Shown piece by piece: positions 4,588 to 63,597 of a DNA stretch of 64,000 bases (its first letter is position 1; every line of letters starts with the position of its first letter). This DNA is from Bacteroides sp. (lineage in GTDB: Bacteria > Bacteroidota > Bacteroidia > Bacteroidales > Bacteroidaceae), in contig JAGBWA010000062.1 of NCBI GenBank assembly GCA_017630035.1, positions 39,355 through 103,354 on the forward strand, in the 5' to 3' direction. The position numbers were made by a program, and so were the translations under genes. The notes under the pieces are model-generated. The model searched no databases. It was not told the origin of the DNA and saw nothing but the letters and a program-made list of their open reading frames with translations.

Positions 4588-5925
4588 CTAAACAATTCCT
4601 TGCGCCATCATGGCATTGGCCACCTTCATGAAGCCAGCAATATTGGCACCTTTCACATAATTAATGTAGCCACTTGGTTCGGTTCCATACTTCACACATT
4701 GCTCGTGAATGCCGTGCATAATGGTGTGTAGCTTTTCGTCCACCTCTTCGGCGCTCCAGCTGATGTGCATAGCGTTTTGGCTCATTTCCAATCCGCTTGT
4801 TGCTACCCCACCAGCATTTACCGCCTTACCTGGTGCATACATTATTTGGTTTTCGATAAACAAATCAATTGCTTCGGGTGTGCATCCCATGTTCGAGATT
4901 TCGCCCACACAAGTCACTTGATTTGCAATCAGGTTGCGTGCATCCTCGCCGTTCAATTCGTTTTGAGTGGCACAAGGCAACGCTATATCCACTTTCACTT
5001 CCCACGGACGTTTACCTGCCACGAAAGTAGCTTCAGGGAATTCGTCTGCATAAGGAGCAACAATATCATTGCCCGATGCACGAAGTTCAAGCATATAATC
5101 AATTTTTTCGCCACTGATGCCTGTTGGGTCGTAGATGTATCCATCAGGACCAGAGATAGTAACAACCTTAGCCCCCAACTCAGTAGCCTTCAGTGCAGCT
5201 CCCCAAGCCACATTGCCAAAGCCTGATATAGCCACGGTTTTACCTTTGATATCGATGCCCTTATGCTTGAGCATATCGTTCACAAAGTATAAACCACCGA
5301 AGCCTGTAGCTTCCGGACGGATGAGCGAGCCACCAAAGTCCAACCCCTTGCCGGTGAATGTGCCGGTAAATTCGCGGGTTAGTTTTTTGTACATGCCAAA
5401 CATATAGCCCACTTCGCGAGCGCCCACACCTATATCTCCGGCGGGCACGTCCATATCCGGACCTAAATGGCGCCACAATTCTAGCATAAAGGCTTGGCAG
5501 AAGCGCATTACTTCGGCTTGGCTCTTTCCGCGCGGTGAGAAGTCCGAACCGCCTTTACCACCGCCCATTGGCAATGTTGTCAATGCATTCTTAAAGGTTT
5601 GTTCAAACCCTAAGAACTTCAAGATAGAAAGGTTTACGGAAGCGTGGAAGCGAATGCCGCCTTTGTAAGGGCCAATGGCATTGTTAAATTGCACACGATA
5701 ACCTAAATTAGTTTGCACTTCGCCCTTATCGTCCACCCATGTAACACGGAAGGTGAAGATGCGGTCGGGTTCTACCAAGCGCTCTATAATCTTAGCTTTT
5801 TCAAACTCGGGGTGTTCATTATAAATATCTTCGATAGACAACAACACCTCTTTAACGGCTTGGAGATATTCCAATTCGCCTGGATGCTTTGCCTCTAATG
5901 AGGACATTATTCGTTCAATATTCAT
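4588..5925 (-). CDS. gdhB: Glutamate dehydrogenase (resembles the NAD-specific Bacteroides GdhB)
   Basis: GPYKGG, GGGKGGSDF, DVPAGDIG, RPEATG and GFGNV motifs. The N-terminus MNIERIMSSLEAKHPGE matches the B. fragilis GdhB type as I recall it. Confidence 0.9.
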   Translation of the reverse strand: MNIERIMSSLEAKHPGELEYLQAVKEVLLSIEDIYNEHPEFEKAKIIERLVEPDRIFTFRVTWVDDKGEVQTNLGYRVQFNNAIGPYKGGIRFHASVNLSILKFLGFEQTFKNALTTLPMGGGKGGSDFSPRGKSQAEVMRFCQAFMLELWRHLGPDMDVPAGDIGVGAREVGYMFGMYKKLTREFTGTFTGKGLDFGGSLIRPEATGFGGLYFVNDMLKHKGIDIKGKTVAISGFGNVAWGAALKATELGAKVVTISGPDGYIYDPTGISGEKIDYMLELRASGNDIVAPYADEFPEATFVAGKRPWEVKVDIALPCATQNELNGEDARNLIANQVTCVGEISNMGCTPEAIDLFIENQIMYAPGKAVNAGGVATSGLEMSQNAMHISWSAEEVDEKLHTIMHGIHEQCVKYGTEPSGYINYVKGANIAGFMKVANAMMAQGIV

Positions 5926-9473: not shown

Positions 9474-9505
9474 TTTGCATAAAATTCCATCAAATATTAT
9501 CTTTG
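9474..9505 (+). promoter_or_regulatory. Bacteroidetes primary-sigma promoter for the uORF-czc operon
   Basis: TTTG (9474-9477), 20-nt spacer, TATCTTTG (9498-9505). This fits the -33/-7 consensus. Confidence 0.65.
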
Positions 9506-9525
9506 CGCAGGAAAATACACATAGA

Positions 9526-9930
9526 ATGACGAAACGGAAATACATATCCTATCTATTGCTTTTATTCAGCATGCTGATGTTGACCATACCTGTTATGCCC
9601 CATCATCACCATGCCAACGGCCAGATATGTATGAAGGACGATGTGCATACCGATTGTTGCCATCAGCACAACGACGATGCGAAAGAGCATAATCATGGTT
9701 GTGAAGATACGGGATGCATCACTACACATTTCTTTCAACAACTTCCCTCGAACAACGAACACGAATCGCACATTGTCGATGTTCAACCTGTTGAGTATAT
9801 ATTATCTTATATACCAATTTTATTCGCGCTCGAAAATCCAAAGAACCATATTGATTACGGCTATCGAGAATCGTTACATGACACACGCATTCTGTTTGCC
9901 AAAGGGCTTCGTGCGCCTCCTTGTGTATAA
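9526..9930 (+). CDS. His/Cys-rich membrane-anchored or secreted small protein with C-terminal RAPP motif (DUF6769-like); putative arrest/leader peptide
   Basis: Hydrophobic N-terminus, PHHHH..C, CCHQH, HNHGC...C, ending GLRAPPCV*. It is the first gene of the efflux operon. Confidence 0.8.
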   Translation: MTKRKYISYLLLLFSMLMLTIPVMPHHHHANGQICMKDDVHTDCCHQHNDDAKEHNHGCEDTGCITTHFFQQLPSNNEHESHIVDVQPVEYILSYIPILFALENPKNHIDYGYRESLHDTRILFAKGLRAPPCV

Positions 9931-10003
9931 TACACTTGCATAAAAATAGAGCACTATTGCTTTATTTATATTCCTCTTTTGTAAAATCAAAAAACATATA
10001 AAT

Positions 10004-11281
10004 ATGAAGAAGCATCTCTTTATGGGAGTAATAGGCTTGTTCCTATTAGGCTCCTGCACCGGTAAGCATGCACACCACGACCATGAGGGTCATAACCACG
10101 AAGCGCATGCACACCACGACCACGAAGGTCATAATCATGAACACGAAGGTCATAATCATGAAGGACATCATCATGAAGAGCATCACGACCACGAAGGCCA
10201 TAATCATGAAGGACATCATCATGAACACGAAGGCCATGAACACGCACACGAGGGCCATGGCGATGAAATAGCACTATCGGACAGCAAGGCGCATGCAGCT
10301 GGCGTAGAGGTAGGCGTGGTAGAGCCAAGCTCGTTTCATCAAGTAATAAAATGTAGCGGACAGGTATTGGCCGCACAAGGCAACGAAAGCACCGTAGTGG
10401 CCAGCATTGCGGGCGTGGTGAAGTTTAACGGCAAGCTCACCGAAGGCATGAAGGTGGGTCAAGGCGCCACGCTGATGACACTCTCGGCAAAAAGCATTGC
10501 TGCGGGCGACCCCGTAGAGAAGGCGCGCGTGGCCTACGAAACAGCCAAGGCGGAATACGAACGCATGGAGGCACTTGTGGCAGACAAAATTGTATCGGCC
10601 AAAGCCTTTGCACAAGCAAAAGAGGCGTACGAAAATGCACGCATTGCCTACGAAGCCGTCAGCCGAAACAATGCAGCAAGCGGCACATCCATCACAGCCC
10701 CACTGGGCGGATATGTAAAGAACCTATTGGTGAAGGAGGGCGACTATGTCAGTGTGGGTCAACCCCTGGTAAGCATTACGCAAGACCAACGCCTTTCGCT
10801 CCGCGCCGATGTGCCCCAACGCCACTATCAAGCCCTGAGCAGCATGGAAAGCGCCAACTTCTGCACACCTTATAATAAAGAGGTGTACGAGCTGAAAGCG
10901 CTGAACGGCCGACTGCTGTCGTATGGCAAAAGCGCAAGCGAAAATGGCAACATGATTCCCATAACCTTCGAATTCGATAATCGCGGCAAGGTAATGCCCG
11001 GCTCGTTTGTCGAAGTATATCTCTTAGGCGCTGCACAAGCGGATGCTATAGCCCTACCCCTAACGGCACTGACCGAAGAGCAAGGAAGCTACTACATCTA
11101 CAAGCAAGTGCACCCCGAACGATACATGAAGCAACTCGTCAGCCTGGGCGCATCGGATGGCACACGCGTACAGATTCTATCGGGCGTAAGCGCCGGCGAT
11201 AAGGTTGTGATGCGCGGAGCATATCAAGTGAAACTGGCCAATACAAGCAATGCCATACCGGGGCATAGTCATGAACATTAA
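10004..11281 (+). CDS. Heavy-metal RND efflux periplasmic adaptor (CzcB/CusB-like), lipoprotein
   Basis: Lipobox LGSC, long His-rich linker, lipoyl-type VKEGDYV motif and C-terminal GHSHEH. Confidence 0.92.
   Translation: MKKHLFMGVIGLFLLGSCTGKHAHHDHEGHNHEAHAHHDHEGHNHEHEGHNHEGHHHEEHHDHEGHNHEGHHHEHEGHEHAHEGHGDEIALSDSKAHAAGVEVGVVEPSSFHQVIKCSGQVLAAQGNESTVVASIAGVVKFNGKLTEGMKVGQGATLMTLSAKSIAAGDPVEKARVAYETAKAEYERMEALVADKIVSAKAFAQAKEAYENARIAYEAVSRNNAASGTSITAPLGGYVKNLLVKEGDYVSVGQPLVSITQDQRLSLRADVPQRHYQALSSMESANFCTPYNKEVYELKALNGRLLSYGKSASENGNMIPITFEFDNRGKVMPGSFVEVYLLGAAQADAIALPLTALTEEQGSYYIYKQVHPERYMKQLVSLGASDGTRVQILSGVSAGDKVVMRGAYQVKLANTSNAIPGHSHEH
10067..10262 (+). repeat. Imperfect coding tandem repeat encoding HEGHNH/HEGHHH units
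   Basis: Recurrent cacgaagg(t/c)cataatcatgaa and gaaggacatcatcatgaa units. Confidence 0.85.
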
Positions 11282-11293
11282 TAGTGCTGAGTT

Positions 11294-14200
11294 ATGCTAA
11301 ATAAAATCATACATTTCTCACTACACAACCGCATCTTGGTGCTTGTAGCAGCCGTGCTGCTAATGCTGGGCGGCACATACACCGCCATGCACACCGATGT
11401 GGATGTATTCCCCGACCTTACCGCCCCCACGGTGGTAGTAATGACCGAGGCAAACGGTATGGCTGCCGAAGAGGTGGAGCAACTGGTTACCTTCCCCATC
11501 GAAACAGCCGTGAATGGCGCTACACACGTGCGCCGCGTACGCTCATCATCCACCAACGGATTCTCCATCTTGTGGGTGGAGTTTGAGTGGGACACAGACA
11601 TCTACCTGGCGCGCCAAATTGTGAGCGAGCGTATTGCCATCGTAAACGACGAACTGCCCGCCGGTGTGGGTAAACCTACCTTGGGGCCGCAATCGTCCAT
11701 CCTGGGCGAAATGATGATTATAGGCCTTACCGCCGACTCTACCTCGATGCTCGACCTACGCACCATAGCCGACTGGACCATCCGCACCCGCCTGCTCTCT
11801 ACGGGCGGTGTGGCGCAAGTATCCGTAATCGGGGGCGATATCAAAGAGTATCAAGTGCTGCTCAGCCCCGAACGCATGCGCCACTATGGCGTAAGCATGG
11901 ACCAAGTGCTTGCTGCTACACGCGGCATGAACCTGAATGCCAACGGCGGAGTGCTGTACGAATATGGCAATGAATACATCCTACGCGGACTGGTTTCTAC
12001 CCAACGCATCGAGGAGATAGCCGAAAGCGTGGTGCGTGGAGGCGAAGGGGGCATCGTAACCCTGGCCGACATTGCCGATGTAAAGATAGGCAGCAAAGTG
12101 CCTAAGCTGGGTACTGCATCGGAGAGAGGGAAACCCGCCGTATTGCTCACCGTAACCAAGCAACCCGGTACCAGCACCCTTGAACTGACCAGCAAAATAG
12201 AAGAGGCTTTGAAGGATGTGCAAAAGAATCTGCCGCACGATGTTCGCATCAGTACAGACATCTTCCGCCAAAGCCGATTCATCGAGAGCTCTATCAACAA
12301 CGTACAACGCTCGCTCATCGAAGGGGGCGTATTTGTAATTATCGTACTCTTCCTCTTCCTGGGCAATGTGCGCACCACCATCATATCGGTAGTAACCATC
12401 CCCTTGGCTTTGATTGCATCGCTCTTGGCGCTCCACTTCATGGGGTTAACCATCAACACGATGAGCTTGGGCGGTATGGCTATTGCCATAGGCTCGCTGG
12501 TGGACGATGCCATTGTGGACGTGGAAAACGTGTATAAACGCTTACGCGAAAATCGCCTACTACCCGCCGAACAACGCCTACGCATAAAGGATGTGGTGTT
12601 CAACGCCTCGCGCGAGGTGCGCATGCCTATCCTAAACTCAACGCTCATCATCGTGGTGAGCTTTGTGCCCCTCTTCTTCCTCAGTGGCATGGAGGGACGC
12701 ATGTTAGTGCCGCTGGGCATTGCCTTCATCGTGGCGTTGTGTGCCTCTACACTGGTGGCCCTCACCCTTACACCCGTTCTTTGCTCCTATCTTTTAAATA
12801 AGAAGAAAAACGATGCAGACAGCCCTTCGGAAGGCGAATCCATCGTGGCGCGTTGGATGAAGAAGCACTACGAAAAGGCGCTTGCCTTTGCCTTGAAGCA
12901 TGGACGCATGGTAATAGGTGGCACAGCCCTTCTCTTCATCGTGGCGTTGGGTTGTTTCTTCACCTTGGGCCGCTCATTCCTTCCACCTTTTAACGAAGGT
13001 TCGTTCACCATCAACATCTCTTCCCTACCGGGCATCTCGTTGGAAGAGAGCGATGCTATCGGCCGAAGAGCCGAAGAGCTATTGCTGTCCATACCCGAAG
13101 TGCAAACTGTAGCCCGCAAAACGGGTCGAGCAGAGTTGGCTGAGCACTCGTTTGGCGTAAATGCATCGGAGTTGGAAGTGCCCTACGAACTGAAGGATAG
13201 AAGCCGCAGAGAGGTAGCTGCCGAAGTGCGCGAAAAGCTTTCTACACTGGTAGGAGCAAACATCGAGATTGGTCAGCCCATCAGCCACCGCATCGATGCT
13301 ACGCTATCGGGCAGTAAGGCAAATATTGCCATCAAGCTGTTTGGCGATGATTTGAATCGTCTATTCTTGCTGGGCAACGAGATAAAGGCTGCCTCGATGG
13401 ATATTGAGGGCATTGCCGACTTGAACGTGGAGCAGCAAATAGAGCGTCCGCAGCTCACCATCTCACCTCGCCGTGAAATGTTGGCTCGCTATGGCATTAC
13501 CATCCCGCAATTTGCCGAGTTTGTGCGTGTAGCCTTGGCGGGCGAAGCTGTATCGCAAGTGTACGAAAAGGGTAAGACGTTCGACCTCACCGTGAAGGTG
13601 GACGATGATAATAAGCAGCAGGCAGAAAGCATTGCCGACTTGCTCATCGATACGGCCAATGGCGATCAAGTTCCCCTAAGCCATGTGGCCGAGATTCGTT
13701 CGACCATGGGGCCTAATAGCATCAGCCGCGAAAATGTGAAGCGCAAAGTAGTGGTGAGCGCCAACGTGGATGGACGCGATTTGCGCAATGTTGTTAACGA
13801 CCTTAAAGAGGTTATCGATACGCAAATCTCCCTGCCCGAAGGCTATCATGTGGAGTTTGGCGGACAATTCGAAAGCGAAGAGGCCGCAAGCCGCACGCTG
13901 TTGTTCACCTCGTTCATCTCTATCATCGTAATTTTCCTACTCATCTACCACGAGTTTCACGATTTGAAGGAGAGTGCCATTATCTTGCTCAACCTGCCTT
14001 TAGCATTGATTGGCGGTGTGTTCACCCTGCTATTCACCTCGGGCGAGATTAGTATTCCGGCCATCATCGGATTCATCTCACTCTTTGGTATTGCCACACG
14101 CAATGGTATGTTGCTTATCAATCGCTATAAAACATTGCAACACGAAGAGGGAAAGACGCTTATCGAAAGCGTAATGCATGGCTCGCTCGACCGTCTGAAT

Positions 14201-14395
14201 CCTATCTTAATGACCGCCCTAACATCGGCCTTAGCCCTTATACCATTGGCGGTGAACGGCGATTTGCCAGGCAATGAGATTCAAAGCCCTATGGCGCAAG
14301 TCATCTTGGGTGGTTTGCTCTCATCTACCCTACTCAATGGATTTATTGTACCTATCGTTTATCTTTGGATGGCTAAAAAAGAGACTAAAGCATGA
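11294..14395 (+). CDS. CzcA/CusA-family heavy-metal RND permease
   Basis: 1033 aa with DVFPDL, GSLVDDAIVDVEN, GIATRNG and RLNPILMTA motifs. Confidence 0.95.
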   Translation: MLNKIIHFSLHNRILVLVAAVLLMLGGTYTAMHTDVDVFPDLTAPTVVVMTEANGMAAEEVEQLVTFPIETAVNGATHVRRVRSSSTNGFSILWVEFEWDTDIYLARQIVSERIAIVNDELPAGVGKPTLGPQSSILGEMMIIGLTADSTSMLDLRTIADWTIRTRLLSTGGVAQVSVIGGDIKEYQVLLSPERMRHYGVSMDQVLAATRGMNLNANGGVLYEYGNEYILRGLVSTQRIEEIAESVVRGGEGGIVTLADIADVKIGSKVPKLGTASERGKPAVLLTVTKQPGTSTLELTSKIEEALKDVQKNLPHDVRISTDIFRQSRFIESSINNVQRSLIEGGVFVIIVLFLFLGNVRTTIISVVTIPLALIASLLALHFMGLTINTMSLGGMAIAIGSLVDDAIVDVENVYKRLRENRLLPAEQRLRIKDVVFNASREVRMPILNSTLIIVVSFVPLFFLSGMEGRMLVPLGIAFIVALCASTLVALTLTPVLCSYLLNKKKNDADSPSEGESIVARWMKKHYEKALAFALKHGRMVIGGTALLFIVALGCFFTLGRSFLPPFNEGSFTINISSLPGISLEESDAIGRRAEELLLSIPEVQTVARKTGRAELAEHSFGVNASELEVPYELKDRSRREVAAEVREKLSTLVGANIEIGQPISHRIDATLSGSKANIAIKLFGDDLNRLFLLGNEIKAASMDIEGIADLNVEQQIERPQLTISPRREMLARYGITIPQFAEFVRVALAGEAVSQVYEKGKTFDLTVKVDDDNKQQAESIADLLIDTANGDQVPLSHVAEIRSTMGPNSISRENVKRKVVVSANVDGRDLRNVVNDLKEVIDTQISLPEGYHVEFGGQFESEEAASRTLLFTSFISIIVIFLLIYHEFHDLKESAIILLNLPLALIGGVFTLLFTSGEISIPAIIGFISLFGIATRNGMLLINRYKTLQHEEGKTLIESVMHGSLDRLNPILMTALTSALALIPLAVNGDLPGNEIQSPMAQVILGGLLSSTLLNGFIVPIVYLWMAKKETKA

Positions 14396-15624
14396 AGCGT
14401 ATGAAAAGTTTTTTACTACTAATAGCGTTGTTCGCCGCCATAAACACCCACGCACAAGAGGGTGCTATCGAGGCTATTTTAAACAAAATAGAGGCAAACA
14501 ACCCACAACTGAAAGCCAATAGCGAGGCTATAAACGCGCAAAAATTGCAAAACAAAGCCGATAACAACCTGCCCGACCCTACACTGACCTATGCCCATCT
14601 GTGGGATTCGGACAATAGCGAACGAACAGTAGGCGAATTGGTTGTGGCGCAAAGTTTCGACTTCCCCACACTTTACATCAGCCGTGGAAAGATGAATCGT
14701 TTGCGTACAGGTGCACTCGATGCGCAAGCACAAGCCTTCCGCCAAGAGGTGCTACTACAAGCGCAAGAACTTTGCTTGGACATCATCATGTTGCATCAAC
14801 AACAAGCGCTGCTCAACGTACGCTTGAAGAATGCCGAAGAGCTGGCCGCCATGTACACCAAACGCTTGGAAGCCGGCGATGCAAATGTATTGGAAACAAA
14901 CAAGATAAACCTTGAATTGCTGAACGTACGCACTGAAGCTCGCTTGAACGATGCAACCTTGCAAGCCAAACTAAAAGAGCTATCCGCCCTGAATGGCGAA
15001 GAGCCGCTTGGCGCTGGTCGTCCACTGGCCGATGGTGCGCCTTATGGTGCTGCTGCATTAGGATTAACCTCCTACCCCAACACACCGATGCCGCTCGACT
15101 TCGAGCCGCTTTGCAACGAATTGCTAAGCCTATGCCCCACCCTCCAATCGCTCAGCAGCGAAGGTCAGGCTATGCGCAAGCAACTCTCCATCAACAAGCA
15201 AGGATGGATACCTAAATTGCAATTAGGCTATCGTAGAAACACCGAATCGGGACATCCATTGAACGGCGTAGTAGTAGGTTTCTCTTTCCCGCTTTTCGAA
15301 AATCGTAGCAAGGTAAAGATAGCCAAGTCCGAGGTAAGCATGATGGAGTATCAACAAGATAATGCCCGCATGCAAGCCACTACCAAACTTCGAAATCTTT
15401 ACGAAGAGGCCTACCAACTCAATACCTCAATCAAGGAATACCAACAAGTATTTGCCCAACAACAAGATTTAGAATTGCTTAAAAAGGCGCTTATCGGAGG
15501 CGAAATCAGTATGATAGAGTACTTCGTGGAAGTGGGCATCGTCTTCCAAAGCAAAGCCAACCTTATCAATTTGGAAAACCAATACCAAAAAACAATGGCT
15601 CGCTTGTATCAAAACAAGCTATAA
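14392..15624 (+). CDS. TolC/CzcC-family outer membrane efflux protein
   Basis: Signal peptide and OEP repeat pattern (NPQLKA..QSFDFP..GFSFPLF). Third gene of the RND operon. Confidence 0.9.
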   Translation: MKRMKSFLLLIALFAAINTHAQEGAIEAILNKIEANNPQLKANSEAINAQKLQNKADNNLPDPTLTYAHLWDSDNSERTVGELVVAQSFDFPTLYISRGKMNRLRTGALDAQAQAFRQEVLLQAQELCLDIIMLHQQQALLNVRLKNAEELAAMYTKRLEAGDANVLETNKINLELLNVRTEARLNDATLQAKLKELSALNGEEPLGAGRPLADGAPYGAAALGLTSYPNTPMPLDFEPLCNELLSLCPTLQSLSSEGQAMRKQLSINKQGWIPKLQLGYRRNTESGHPLNGVVVGFSFPLFENRSKVKIAKSEVSMMEYQQDNARMQATTKLRNLYEEAYQLNTSIKEYQQVFAQQQDLELLKKALIGGEISMIEYFVEVGIVFQSKANLINLENQYQKTMARLYQNKL

Positions 15625-63200: not shown

Positions 63201-63597
63201 ATCCCCCATCACCTTCACCATCCATCAAGTATCCAACTTTTACATTAAAATGCTTAAAACGATAGCCGACTGAAGGGTGAATATTAAATTCGTAATCTTT
63301 TTCAATATAGGTGTTAACATCAATGAACGGAGTAAATCTGTCTTTGATAGTGGCATCGTATCGAAAATTTGCAAGACCGGCCCAATCAGACCCTCCCATC
63401 CAAGATATACCAACAACACCCACACCGACAAATATATTCGGATTGAATTGATAACCATGAGTAGTAGAAATACCAGGAAGACCCACTTCTACAAATCCGC
63501 GATACCCGCTTCCTAAACTCTTCTTACCTTCTTGCCCCATTACATTTGTCGCCAATGAGAGAAGGAGCAACATCGTTGCAATAACTTTTACTTTCAT
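63154..63597 (-). CDS. Small putative outer membrane beta-barrel protein
   Basis: Signal peptide, GYRGFVE, THGYQFNP.IF.G.G and GIGFDFGGRKKK. Confidence 0.75.
   Translation of the reverse strand: MKVKVIATMLLLLSLATNVMGQEGKKSLGSGYRGFVEVGLPGISTTHGYQFNPNIFVGVGVVGISWMGGSDWAGLANFRYDATIKDRFTPFIDVNTYIEKDYEFNIHPSVGYRFKHFNVKVGYLMDGEGDGGLTVGIGFDFGGRKKK

What the first reader, a model, noticed from the sequence alone, without database searches (positions are those of the whole stretch)
9526..9930. Candidate metal-sensing ribosome-arrest uORF (C-terminal RAPP) heading a CzcCBA-like efflux operon
Seen in the sequence: a 134-aa ORF with an N-terminal signal/TM segment, then PHHHH-x5-C, CCHQH and HNHGC-x4-C, ending GLRAPPCV* (RAPP at 9910-9921). 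It carries the only recognisable promoter (9474-9505). I see no TAnnTTTG in the 73 nt before the adaptor gene, so the pump probably depends on readthrough. Established: RAPP/RAGP-type C-terminal motifs stall ribosomes in secretion-coupled arrest peptides (SecM, ApdA, ApdP). Bordetella CruR (DUF2946; signal segment, metal motif, RAPP) controls a downstream copper transporter post-transcriptionally. Inference: this is a Bacteroidales analogue. The nascent His/Cys domain is exported while the ribosome is stalled, and periplasmic Zn/Co/Ni/Cd binding changes arrest release, tuning efflux expression. No MerR/ArsR or CzcRS regulator is adjacent; the neighbour is only a stand-alone receiver domain. 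I know of no characterised example controlling a metal exporter in Bacteroidetes.
Basis: partly seen in the sequence, partly recalled or inferred. Interest (0 to 1): 0.88.

Follow-up and report, generated by a model that had tools for sequence, protein, structure and literature searches.

The report
Ribosome-stalling leader of metal efflux pump
A small gene in front of a heavy-metal export pump ends in a ribosome-stalling motif kept in nearly all its relatives, and it likely acts as a metal sensor that lets the pump genes be read; a published survey already lists this family, but we found no test of it.

Summary
9526-9930 encodes a 134-aa DUF6769 protein: hydrophobic N-terminus, PHHHH, a His/Cys cluster, and GLRAPP two residues before the stop. 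It heads a CzcBAC-like heavy-metal RND operon. All 104 complete homologous loci end in RAPP or RGPP, and all 98 with room have the adaptor gene next. The layout is conserved like a ruler: last Cys about 66 residues and a hydrophobic segment about 29 residues before the Arg. Stalling is very likely; metal sensing is likely; neither was tested. The closest model is Rhodobacter CutF (metal induces the stall, detox gene on), not CruR. The output is more likely transcription readthrough than unmasking of the czcB start. One correction: many Bacteroides relatives also carry an operator and promoter in the gap, tied to a Fur-family paralogue. The window lacks both, so readthrough probably holds here but not family-wide. 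Novelty is limited: EMBO J 2025 source data already list DUF6769 as RAPP uORFs before RND adaptors, and a 2023 paper predicted CutF-like proteins in Bacteroidota. New here are the ruler, a covarying hairpin just before RAPP, and the Fur-paralogue layer. New member of a known kind; interest 0.5.

The parts
9474..9505 (+). Bacteroidetes-type promoter: TTTG 9474-9477 and TATCTTTG 9498-9505; start of transcription predicted near 9510
   Evidence: sequence; a TAnnTTTG box lies within 130 nt upstream in 81 of 95 homologous loci with an assignable start; consensus recalled, spacing to the start by analogy with rows of a published start-site table
9526..9930 (+). DUF6769 (PF20558) uORF, 134 aa
   Evidence: E 8e-32, 111 bits, cut-off 27
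9541..9597 (+). Hydrophobic signal or anchor segment, residues 6-24
   Evidence: KD 2.0; helix 3-23; conserved across the family; cleavage not testable
9598..9630 (+). PHHHH-x5-C motif, predicted metal site; PHHHH lies a median 105 residues before the Arg of RAPP
9646..9729 (+). His/Cys cluster, residues 41-68; last Cys (C64) 65 residues before the Arg (family median 66)
9772..9831 (+). Marginally hydrophobic segment, residues 83-102; in the family it ends a median 29 residues before the Arg; predicted pulling handle
   Evidence: role inferred
9862..9921 (+). Extended arrest motif Y-x-E-x-L-H-x3-I-x2-A-x-G-L-R-A-P-P (RAPP at 9910-9921; predicted P-site Pro 9916-9918)
   Evidence: position frequencies in 185 sequences; stall register from ApdA/ApdP and CruR
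9880..9900 (+). 7-bp RNA hairpin inside the coding sequence, ending 10 nt before the Arg codon; 5 of 7 pairs kept in the window
9944..9967 (+). AU-rich 10-bp hairpin in the gap, followed by a broken U-tract; weak terminator or pause candidate
   Evidence: z -3.45 for the gap; also predicted in L036; did not reach the -7 kcal/mol terminator cut
10004..11281 (+). CzcB-like RND periplasmic adaptor with a His-rich N-terminus
   Evidence: TIGR01730 over cut-off
11294..14395 (+). CusA/CzcA-family heavy-metal RND transporter
   Evidence: TIGR00914, 817 bits, cut-off 701; best solved relatives CusA and ZneA
14392..15624 (+). Outer-membrane efflux protein
   Evidence: PF02321
8984..9382 (-). Divergent stand-alone receiver domain; a neighbour, not a conserved part of the unit
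   Evidence: found within the fetched flanks in 26 of 104 loci, mostly 2-6 kb away

Best explanation
The ORF is a DUF6769 leader gene whose nascent protein likely stalls the ribosome at RAPP, likely senses periplasmic divalent metal through its His/Cys domain, and would thereby let transcription run on into the downstream czcBAC-like pump genes. Step 1 (shown): one promoter, uORF first, pump genes next, no second promoter in this genome. [quoted passage not shown] Step 3 (inferred, about 0.7): the N-terminal segment threads the chain into Sec; at arrest the His/Cys domain, 65-105 residues away, is just outside the membrane and the hydrophobic segment sits at the tunnel exit, so export pulls the ribosome free when metal is low. 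Step 4 (inferred, about 0.6): bound Zn/Co/Cd/Ni removes that pull and prolongs the stall, as Cu does for CutF. Step 5 (inferred, about 0.55): a released ribosome leaves naked RNA and transcription ends in or near the 73-nt gap (Rho or the weak hairpin); a stalled ribosome blocks this. The coding hairpin may pause RNA polymerase at RAPP to couple the two machines.
For: R[AG]PP 2-8 residues from the stop in 104 of 104 complete loci, in 16 of 19 weaker family matches with one-letter variants in the other 3, against 3 of 4559 own ORFs. Downstream adaptor in 98 of 98, CzcA in 67 of 67 and outer-membrane factor in 60 of 61 loci with room. Fixed spacing over an unconserved linker: last Cys to Arg median 66 (quartiles 64-66; 63-68 in 29 loci of the order-wide search), PHHHH to Arg 105, hydrophobic segment ending at -29. 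RAPP arrests resist EF-P, and CruR stalls at RAPP in vitro (PMC12992588). In SecM, CruR and CutF the stall turns the downstream gene on. In relatives the pump shares an operator with Cd/Zn P1B-ATPase genes, which points to a detox role. RAPP/RGPP is kept in all 13 examined genomes that lack the Fur paralogue. Covarying coding hairpin. Terminator-like hairpins in 12 of 37 operator-less gaps against 2.3 expected. Rho is encoded in the own genome.
Against: No stall, metal binding or export was measured. The C>G skew of the linker equals its synonymous-codon expectation (0.089 against 0.086), so there is no sign of selection for a Rho site. The window's gap hairpin is weak (-6.0 kcal/mol), and 25 of 37 operator-less gaps have no terminator-like hairpin at -7. 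Cys number and pattern vary (0-10 Cys within 55 residues of PH) and the model of the domain is low-confidence (pLDDT about 56-63). In B. thetaiotaomicron the pump genes rise 2.5-3.3-fold under the chelator dipyridyl (PMC10434189), which on its face is the wrong direction; cadA and its regulator rise too. Many relatives can bypass the uORF through an internal promoter. CruR does not need its signal peptide. The own genome is 78% complete, so a regulator could be missing from the assembly. Loci are related and not independent.
Confidence: 0.45

Rival explanations
1. Same metal-induced stall, but the output is translational as in CutF and SecM: the stalled ribosome opens structure over the czcB start.
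For: The gap folds better than shuffles (z -3.45). Blocking the ribosome footprint opened the czcB start region by more than 0.1 in 23 of 91 loci and closed it in 4. CutF works this way.
Against: The mean change is small (0.52 to 0.57) and nil in the window (0.51 to 0.50). The window's hairpin starts 14 nt after the stop and ends 36 nt before the ATG. Gaps run from 40 to over 400 nt with no shared fold.
Confidence: 0.17
2. Opposite logic, as in CruR: metal binding releases the stall, so the operon is on when metal is scarce, or a stalled ribosome represses it.
For: CruR has the same RAPP and this logic. BT2038-40 rise under dipyridyl.
Against: The pump is CusA/CzcA-type and is co-regulated with Cd/Zn ATPase genes in relatives. 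The Cys cluster lies 65 residues from the Arg, not 45 as in CruR. The dipyridyl rise can go through the internal promoter.
Confidence: 0.15
3. The product is mainly a periplasmic or membrane-anchored metal buffer or chaperone (CzcI-like); RAPP only meters its own export or monitors secretion, without metal sensing.
For: The nearest named clusters by language-model features are CzcI and DUF2946 (0.93, low shared counts, a lead only). RAPP is kept even where an internal promoter exists.
Against: Spacing is conserved while linker sequence is not, which fits a nascent-chain ruler better than a folded protein. No confident fold and no structural match. CzcI lacks the proline motif.
Confidence: 0.15
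4. In this genome the pump is run by an unseen promoter or transcription factor and the uORF is incidental.
For: An operator and promoter exist in the gap of many relatives. The assembly is 78% complete.
Against: The window's gap has no -7 box and at least 5 mismatches to the operator. No Fur paralogue or cadA was found in the own genome. The uORF is intact with the full extended motif.
Confidence: 0.08

Closest known systems
CutF of Rhodobacter capsulatus (PMC9973294; bioRxiv 10.1101/2025.02.05.636593)
   Same: Small first gene with export signal, Cys/His metal motif and C-terminal proline stall motif, upstream of a metal-detox gene; periplasmic metal induces the stall and turns the next gene on.
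   Different: CutF is DUF2946, uses CxxxC and a PPP motif rescued by EF-P, senses Cu, and opens a hairpin over a Shine-Dalgarno site. Here: DUF6769, PHHHH plus a variable Cys cluster, RAPP, an RND pump, and no conserved start-site hairpin.
CruR of Bordetella pertussis (PMC9426467)
   Same: C-terminal RAPP three residues from the end, conserved spacing to a metal motif, first gene of the operon; the stall permits transcription through the gap.
   Different: CXXC 45 residues from RAPP, signal peptide dispensable, Cu releases the stall and shuts an importer. Here there is no CXXC, spacing is 65-105 residues, and the target is an exporter.
RAPP/RGPP uORF survey (PMC12992588, Fig. 4B source data)
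   Same: Lists DUF6769 proteins as RAPP uORFs: 45 occurrences in the held part of the file; of 29 rows seen, 28 precede an RND adaptor and 1 a CusA/CzcA gene. The class 'efflux RND adaptor' has 620 RAPP against 148 AAPP uORFs, 16-fold enriched.
   Different: The main text has no occurrence of DUF6769, RND or efflux; I saw no test of this family in the passages read.
SecM, ApdA, ApdP (PMC10951233)
   Same: Export signal plus RAG/P or RAP/P arrest; G-L before the Arg and I at -7 resemble SecM's WIxxxxGIRAGP (SecM sequence recalled).
   Different: They monitor secretion and regulate sec genes; no His/Cys domain.
CzcI of Cupriavidus metallidurans
   Same: Small exported protein gene in front of czcCBA, proposed metal sensor; nearest named cluster by features.
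   Different: Lacks the C-terminal proline motif; no Pfam match, whose library copy may predate the CzcI model.

Membership tests
DUF6769 (PF20558) | Score above the curated cut-off | tested here: met
   111 bits against 27, residues 4-132
RAPP-type arrest peptides | R-A/G-P-P near the C-terminus, conserved | tested here: met
   104 of 104 complete loci
RAPP-type arrest peptides | Small protein with an N-terminal localisation signal | tested here: inconclusive
   conserved hydrophobic helix; no signal-peptide predictor was available, cleaved or anchored is unknown
RAPP-type arrest peptides | First gene with a conserved downstream target | tested here: met
   adaptor in 98 of 98 loci with room; upstream -7 box in 81 of 95
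RAPP-type arrest peptides | Arg-dependent ribosome stall; acts in cis | not testable with these tools
   needs toeprinting and reporters
DUF2946 / CruR | PF11162 match | tested here: not met
   none at E 0.1; 3 of 128 relatives match weakly, best E 0.0013
DUF2946 / CruR | CXXC about 45 residues before RAPP | tested here: not met
   Cys at 35, 44, 45, 59, 64 and 133; no CxxC; last domain Cys 65 residues before the Arg
DUF2946 / CruR | Rho-dependent termination through a C>G region | tested here: inconclusive
   C>G skew present in 74-88% of loci over the 3' half but equal to the synonymous expectation; Rho present
CutF-like proteins (rule set of PMC9973294) | Under 150 aa, PP within the last 15 residues, N-terminal signal | tested here: met
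   134 aa, PP at 131-132, hydrophobic N-terminus; rules; their member list was not among the held supplements
CutF-like proteins (rule set of PMC9973294) | Stem-loop over the downstream initiation site, opened by the stall | tested here: not met
   no change in the window, small mean change in 91 loci; prediction only
CutF-like proteins (rule set of PMC9973294) | Periplasmic metal induces the stall | not testable with these tools
   needs experiment
CusA/CzcA heavy-metal RND pump (target) | TIGR00914 above cut-off, with adaptor and outer-membrane factor | tested here: met
   the metal carried is not determined

The most novel reading that the evidence does not exclude
DUF6769 is an order-wide nascent-chain sensor for a metal other than copper (Zn, Co, Cd or Ni) that switches on an RND exporter by transcription attenuation, timed by a pause hairpin inside the arrest codons. 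It is the ancestral control, and the only one in lineages such as this that lack the Fur paralogue, while most Bacteroides have added an operator-gated promoter on top of it.
Probability: 0.3. Interest if true: 0.75.

Novelty: new member of a known kind. Interest (0 to 1): 0.5.

Why it matters
The tested metal-sensing arrest peptides seen in the papers read here respond to copper in Proteobacteria. A family present in 120 of 138 genomes of this gut genus, in front of a heavy-metal RND pump, would extend the mechanism to another phylum, probably another metal, and an exporter. It gives a function to an unannotated Pfam family. It also sets up a clean comparison: B. thetaiotaomicron BT_2037-2040 for genetics, and relatives without the operator and Fur paralogue, where the uORF should act alone.

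Tried and rejected
Rho site: the C>G skew looked supportive but vanished against synonymous shuffles. Start-site hairpin switch: not found. Antiterminator in the window: the gap hairpin stays formed when the ribosome footprint is blocked. Palindrome as an RNA stem: the core is invariant with no covariation, so it is read as a DNA operator, although flanks pair in one clade and TransTermHP called a terminator there in B. thetaiotaomicron with no coverage drop. Structure: pLDDT 67.7, pTM 0.41, no Foldseek match at E 0.001. Expression: one search offered contigs only for locus L159. Of 8 RNA runs laid, 4 had one contig across the uORF and adaptor; in 4 (X20, X21, X22, X23; three studies) contigs stopped inside or just after the uORF (1547, about 1800, 1839, about 1862; stop at 1857) with the adaptor patchy or on a lower-depth contig. 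The ends differ, no DNA run was laid and contig depth cannot rank genes, so this is not counted as evidence. Published start sites: no primary or secondary start for BT_2037, BT_2038 or BT_2512 in the rows returned, which neither confirms nor excludes repressed promoters. Riemerella ZntR is MerR-type and is not the operator's regulator. The one paper naming DUF6769 in its text uses it for a Salmonella T6SS candidate, with no evident link. The generic sigma-70 scan was uninformative. No earlier scan findings. Searches found no description of the operator and no mutant phenotype for the pump.

Full report
1. The observation. The window holds a 134-aa ORF at 9526-9930 that ends GLRAPPCV*, with RAPP at 9910-9921. 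A Bacteroidetes-type promoter (TTTG 9474-9477, TATCTTTG 9498-9505; consensus recalled) lies 20 nt before the ATG, and the 73-nt gap has no TAnnTTTG. Downstream are an RND adaptor, a CusA/CzcA-family transporter above the TIGR00914 cut-off, and an outer-membrane factor. The ORF is Pfam DUF6769 (E 8e-32) and single-copy in the assembly.

2. Conservation. Of 108 loci examined, 105 held a family ORF; 3 weak Pfam hits (L006-L008) did not and were dropped. One of the 105 is cut by a contig end. The other 104, the window included, all end in RAPP (97) or RGPP (7), 2-8 residues from the stop. The 73 loci were found with patterns from the N-terminal half. To reduce selection on the motif I fetched 20 weaker Pfam matches, most covering only the N-terminal part. 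One is the unrelated L007 locus again; of the other 19, 16 end in RAPP or RGPP and 3 in RAPD, RPPP or RGSP. Of 160 proteins from the protein searches, 143 carry R[AGS]PP in the last 20 residues; the 17 others look frameshifted, truncated or read through by eye, which I did not check on DNA. In the own genome 3 of 4559 ORFs end this way. The adaptor follows in 98 of 98 loci with room, CzcA in 67 of 67, the outer-membrane factor in 60 of 61. A match was found in 59 of 301 genomes of the order, 120 of 138 of the genus and 8 of 401 of the phylum, some of them weak. These loci are related, so the counts are not independent trials.

3. Anatomy. In 185 roughly dereplicated sequences, selected for carrying the motif, the arrest region is Y(-16, 76%), E(-14, 81%), L(-12, 86%), H(-11, 71%), G(-2, 78%), L(-1, 91%), then RAPP; the window matches all of these. 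The upstream part is weaker outside Bacteroides. PHHHH is nearly invariant and lies a median 105 residues before the Arg; the last Cys lies 66 before (quartiles 64-66), and 63-68 in 29 loci of the order-wide search. A marginally hydrophobic stretch ends 29 residues before the Arg (quartiles 27-31). The linker sequence itself is not conserved. From recalled dimensions of the exit tunnel (30-35 residues) and the Sec channel, a ribosome stalled at RAPP would hold the hydrophobic stretch at the tunnel exit and the His/Cys domain just outside the membrane. That is inference. The predicted structure is confident only for the N-terminal helix and matched nothing.

4. RNA features. Folding 91 loci with and without a ribosome footprint changed accessibility of the czcB start little (0.52 to 0.57; window 0.51 to 0.50; opened in 23, closed in 4). 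The 3' half of the uORF is C-rich, but no more than its amino acids predict. The window's gap holds a 10-bp AU-rich hairpin at 9944-9967 (z -3.45), too weak for the terminator cut; 12 of 37 operator-less gaps pass that cut against 2.3 expected from crude shuffles. Rho is present. A 7-bp hairpin sits in codons -10 to -4: in 51 sequences (the window and 50 Bacteroides-like loci) 79% of cells pair, all 7 pairs show changes on both sides, 0 of 500 shuffles reach the covariation score, and slid controls pair at 23-48%. The structure was derived from these sequences and they are related, so the test leans in its favour; a synonymous-shuffle test also peaks at this place (mean z -1.15 in 60 loci). 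The window keeps 5 of 7 pairs. Its distance to the Arg codon resembles a polymerase pause hairpin (recalled).

5. A second layer in relatives. In 31 of 104 loci, and 27 of 30 further genus loci, the gap holds TGCAA-N5-TTGCA, mostly followed 12-13 nt later by TAnnTTTG. The same element heads Cd/Zn P1B-ATPase genes in 3 of 5 genomes searched, and in G639 it heads both a Fur-family paralogue and the DUF6769 gene right behind it. The paralogue was found in 120 of 137 other genus genomes. Of the 17 without it, 13 have the uORF; none of the 13 has operator plus promoter (one keeps the palindrome alone) and all keep RAPP or RGPP. Of 9 paralogue-positive genomes fetched for comparison, 4 have both, 1 the palindrome alone, 4 neither. 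I infer that the paralogue binds the palindrome; this is untested. In B. thetaiotaomicron BT2038-40 and BT2511-12 (regulator, cadA) both rise under dipyridyl, and BT2037 does not occur in the text (PMC10434189). The window lacks the operator, and neither the paralogue nor cadA was found in its 78%-complete assembly.

6. Mechanism. Stalling at RAPP is likely (about 0.9): RAPP arrests resist EF-P and CruR stalls there in vitro. In SecM, CruR and CutF a stall turns the next gene on. For an exporter the metal should then prolong the stall, which is the CutF logic: periplasmic Cu binding to the nascent chain removes the pull that frees the ribosome. The output is least certain. Readthrough of transcription is preferred because no start-site switch was found and CruR offers the precedent, but no Rho site or strong terminator is shown. 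Joint confidence is 0.45; rivals are translational output (0.17), opposite logic (0.15), chaperone or secretion monitor (0.15) and incidental uORF (0.08). The metal is not determined; Zn, Cd or Co rests on the co-regulated ATPase and the His-rich motifs.

7. What is known. It works like CutF or CruR but is not DUF2946. PMC9973294 reports CutF-like proteins in Bacteroidota and neighbours that include CusB/CzcB, CusA/CzcA and outer-membrane factors (passages); its member list was not among the 3 held supplements. PMC12992588 lists DUF6769 proteins in the source data of Fig. 4B: 45 occurrences in a file that is cut, 29 rows seen, 28 before an RND adaptor, including B. thetaiotaomicron BT_RS10320; one further file was not searched. 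Its main text does not mention the family, RND or efflux. Searches for DUF6769, RAPP uORFs, CutF and BT2037-2040 found no experimental study of this family; subscription papers are outside the library. Seen: PMC9426467 abstract and sections 9-11; PMC9973294 passages; bioRxiv 2025.02.05.636593 abstract, introduction and passages (supplements closed); PMC12992588 section 13, passages and source-data rows; PMC10951233, PMC10434189, PMC11960050, PMC11078008, PMC12119571 and PMC11669294 passages; PMC7366714 and PMC10994844 supplement rows only.

8. Verdict. A real and well-conserved candidate arrest-peptide leader of a heavy-metal pump. It is a new member of a known kind, already listed but apparently untested. 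The ruler, the coding hairpin and the Fur-paralogue layer are additions that make it directly testable. Interest 0.5.

Noticed in passing
L139:1501-1535, L131, L132, L133, L134, L141; gaps of L037-L087 and L145-L172: Operator TGCAA-N5-TTGCA 12-13 nt before TAnnTTTG, heading the czcB gene, Cd/Zn P1B-ATPase genes and a Fur-family paralogue; probably an undescribed metal-efflux regulon of Bacteroidales. No description found.
   Followed up: partly
G000:C38, about 4649-4990 (-), outside the window: A second small ORF ending SLRAPPYCVSI with an HSH-rich middle, 51 nt before a 761-aa ORF that looks like a TonB-dependent receptor by eye; not scanned against families.
   Followed up: no
L007 and L136: A different leader type in front of other genes: L007 is a HYC_CC_PP family protein and L136 has a similar-looking Cys-rich ORF with no family match before an operator-headed TonB receptor; neither ends in RAPP.
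   Followed up: partly
L113, L115, L125, L117, L124, L128: DUF6769-like leaders with other next genes: a 145-155-aa membrane protein, a TonB-receptor-like protein, or a CzcA-like gene directly (read by eye).
   Followed up: no
window 10070-10260: The adaptor's N-terminus is a long His/Glu repeat (HEGHNH-like units); its length varies among homologues.
   Followed up: no
window 9921-9943: A predicted stem spans the stop codon, and L036 can form a shifted stem with changed letters; a stalled ribosome would cover its 5' arm.
   Followed up: partly
L042, L044, L047, L062, L068 gaps: Long repeat or inverted-repeat insertions in the gap, up to 479 nt, with RAPP kept.
   Followed up: no
window 63566-63580: A one-mismatch copy of the palindrome at the start of one of two similar tandem outer-membrane-like ORFs; probably chance.
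   Followed up: no
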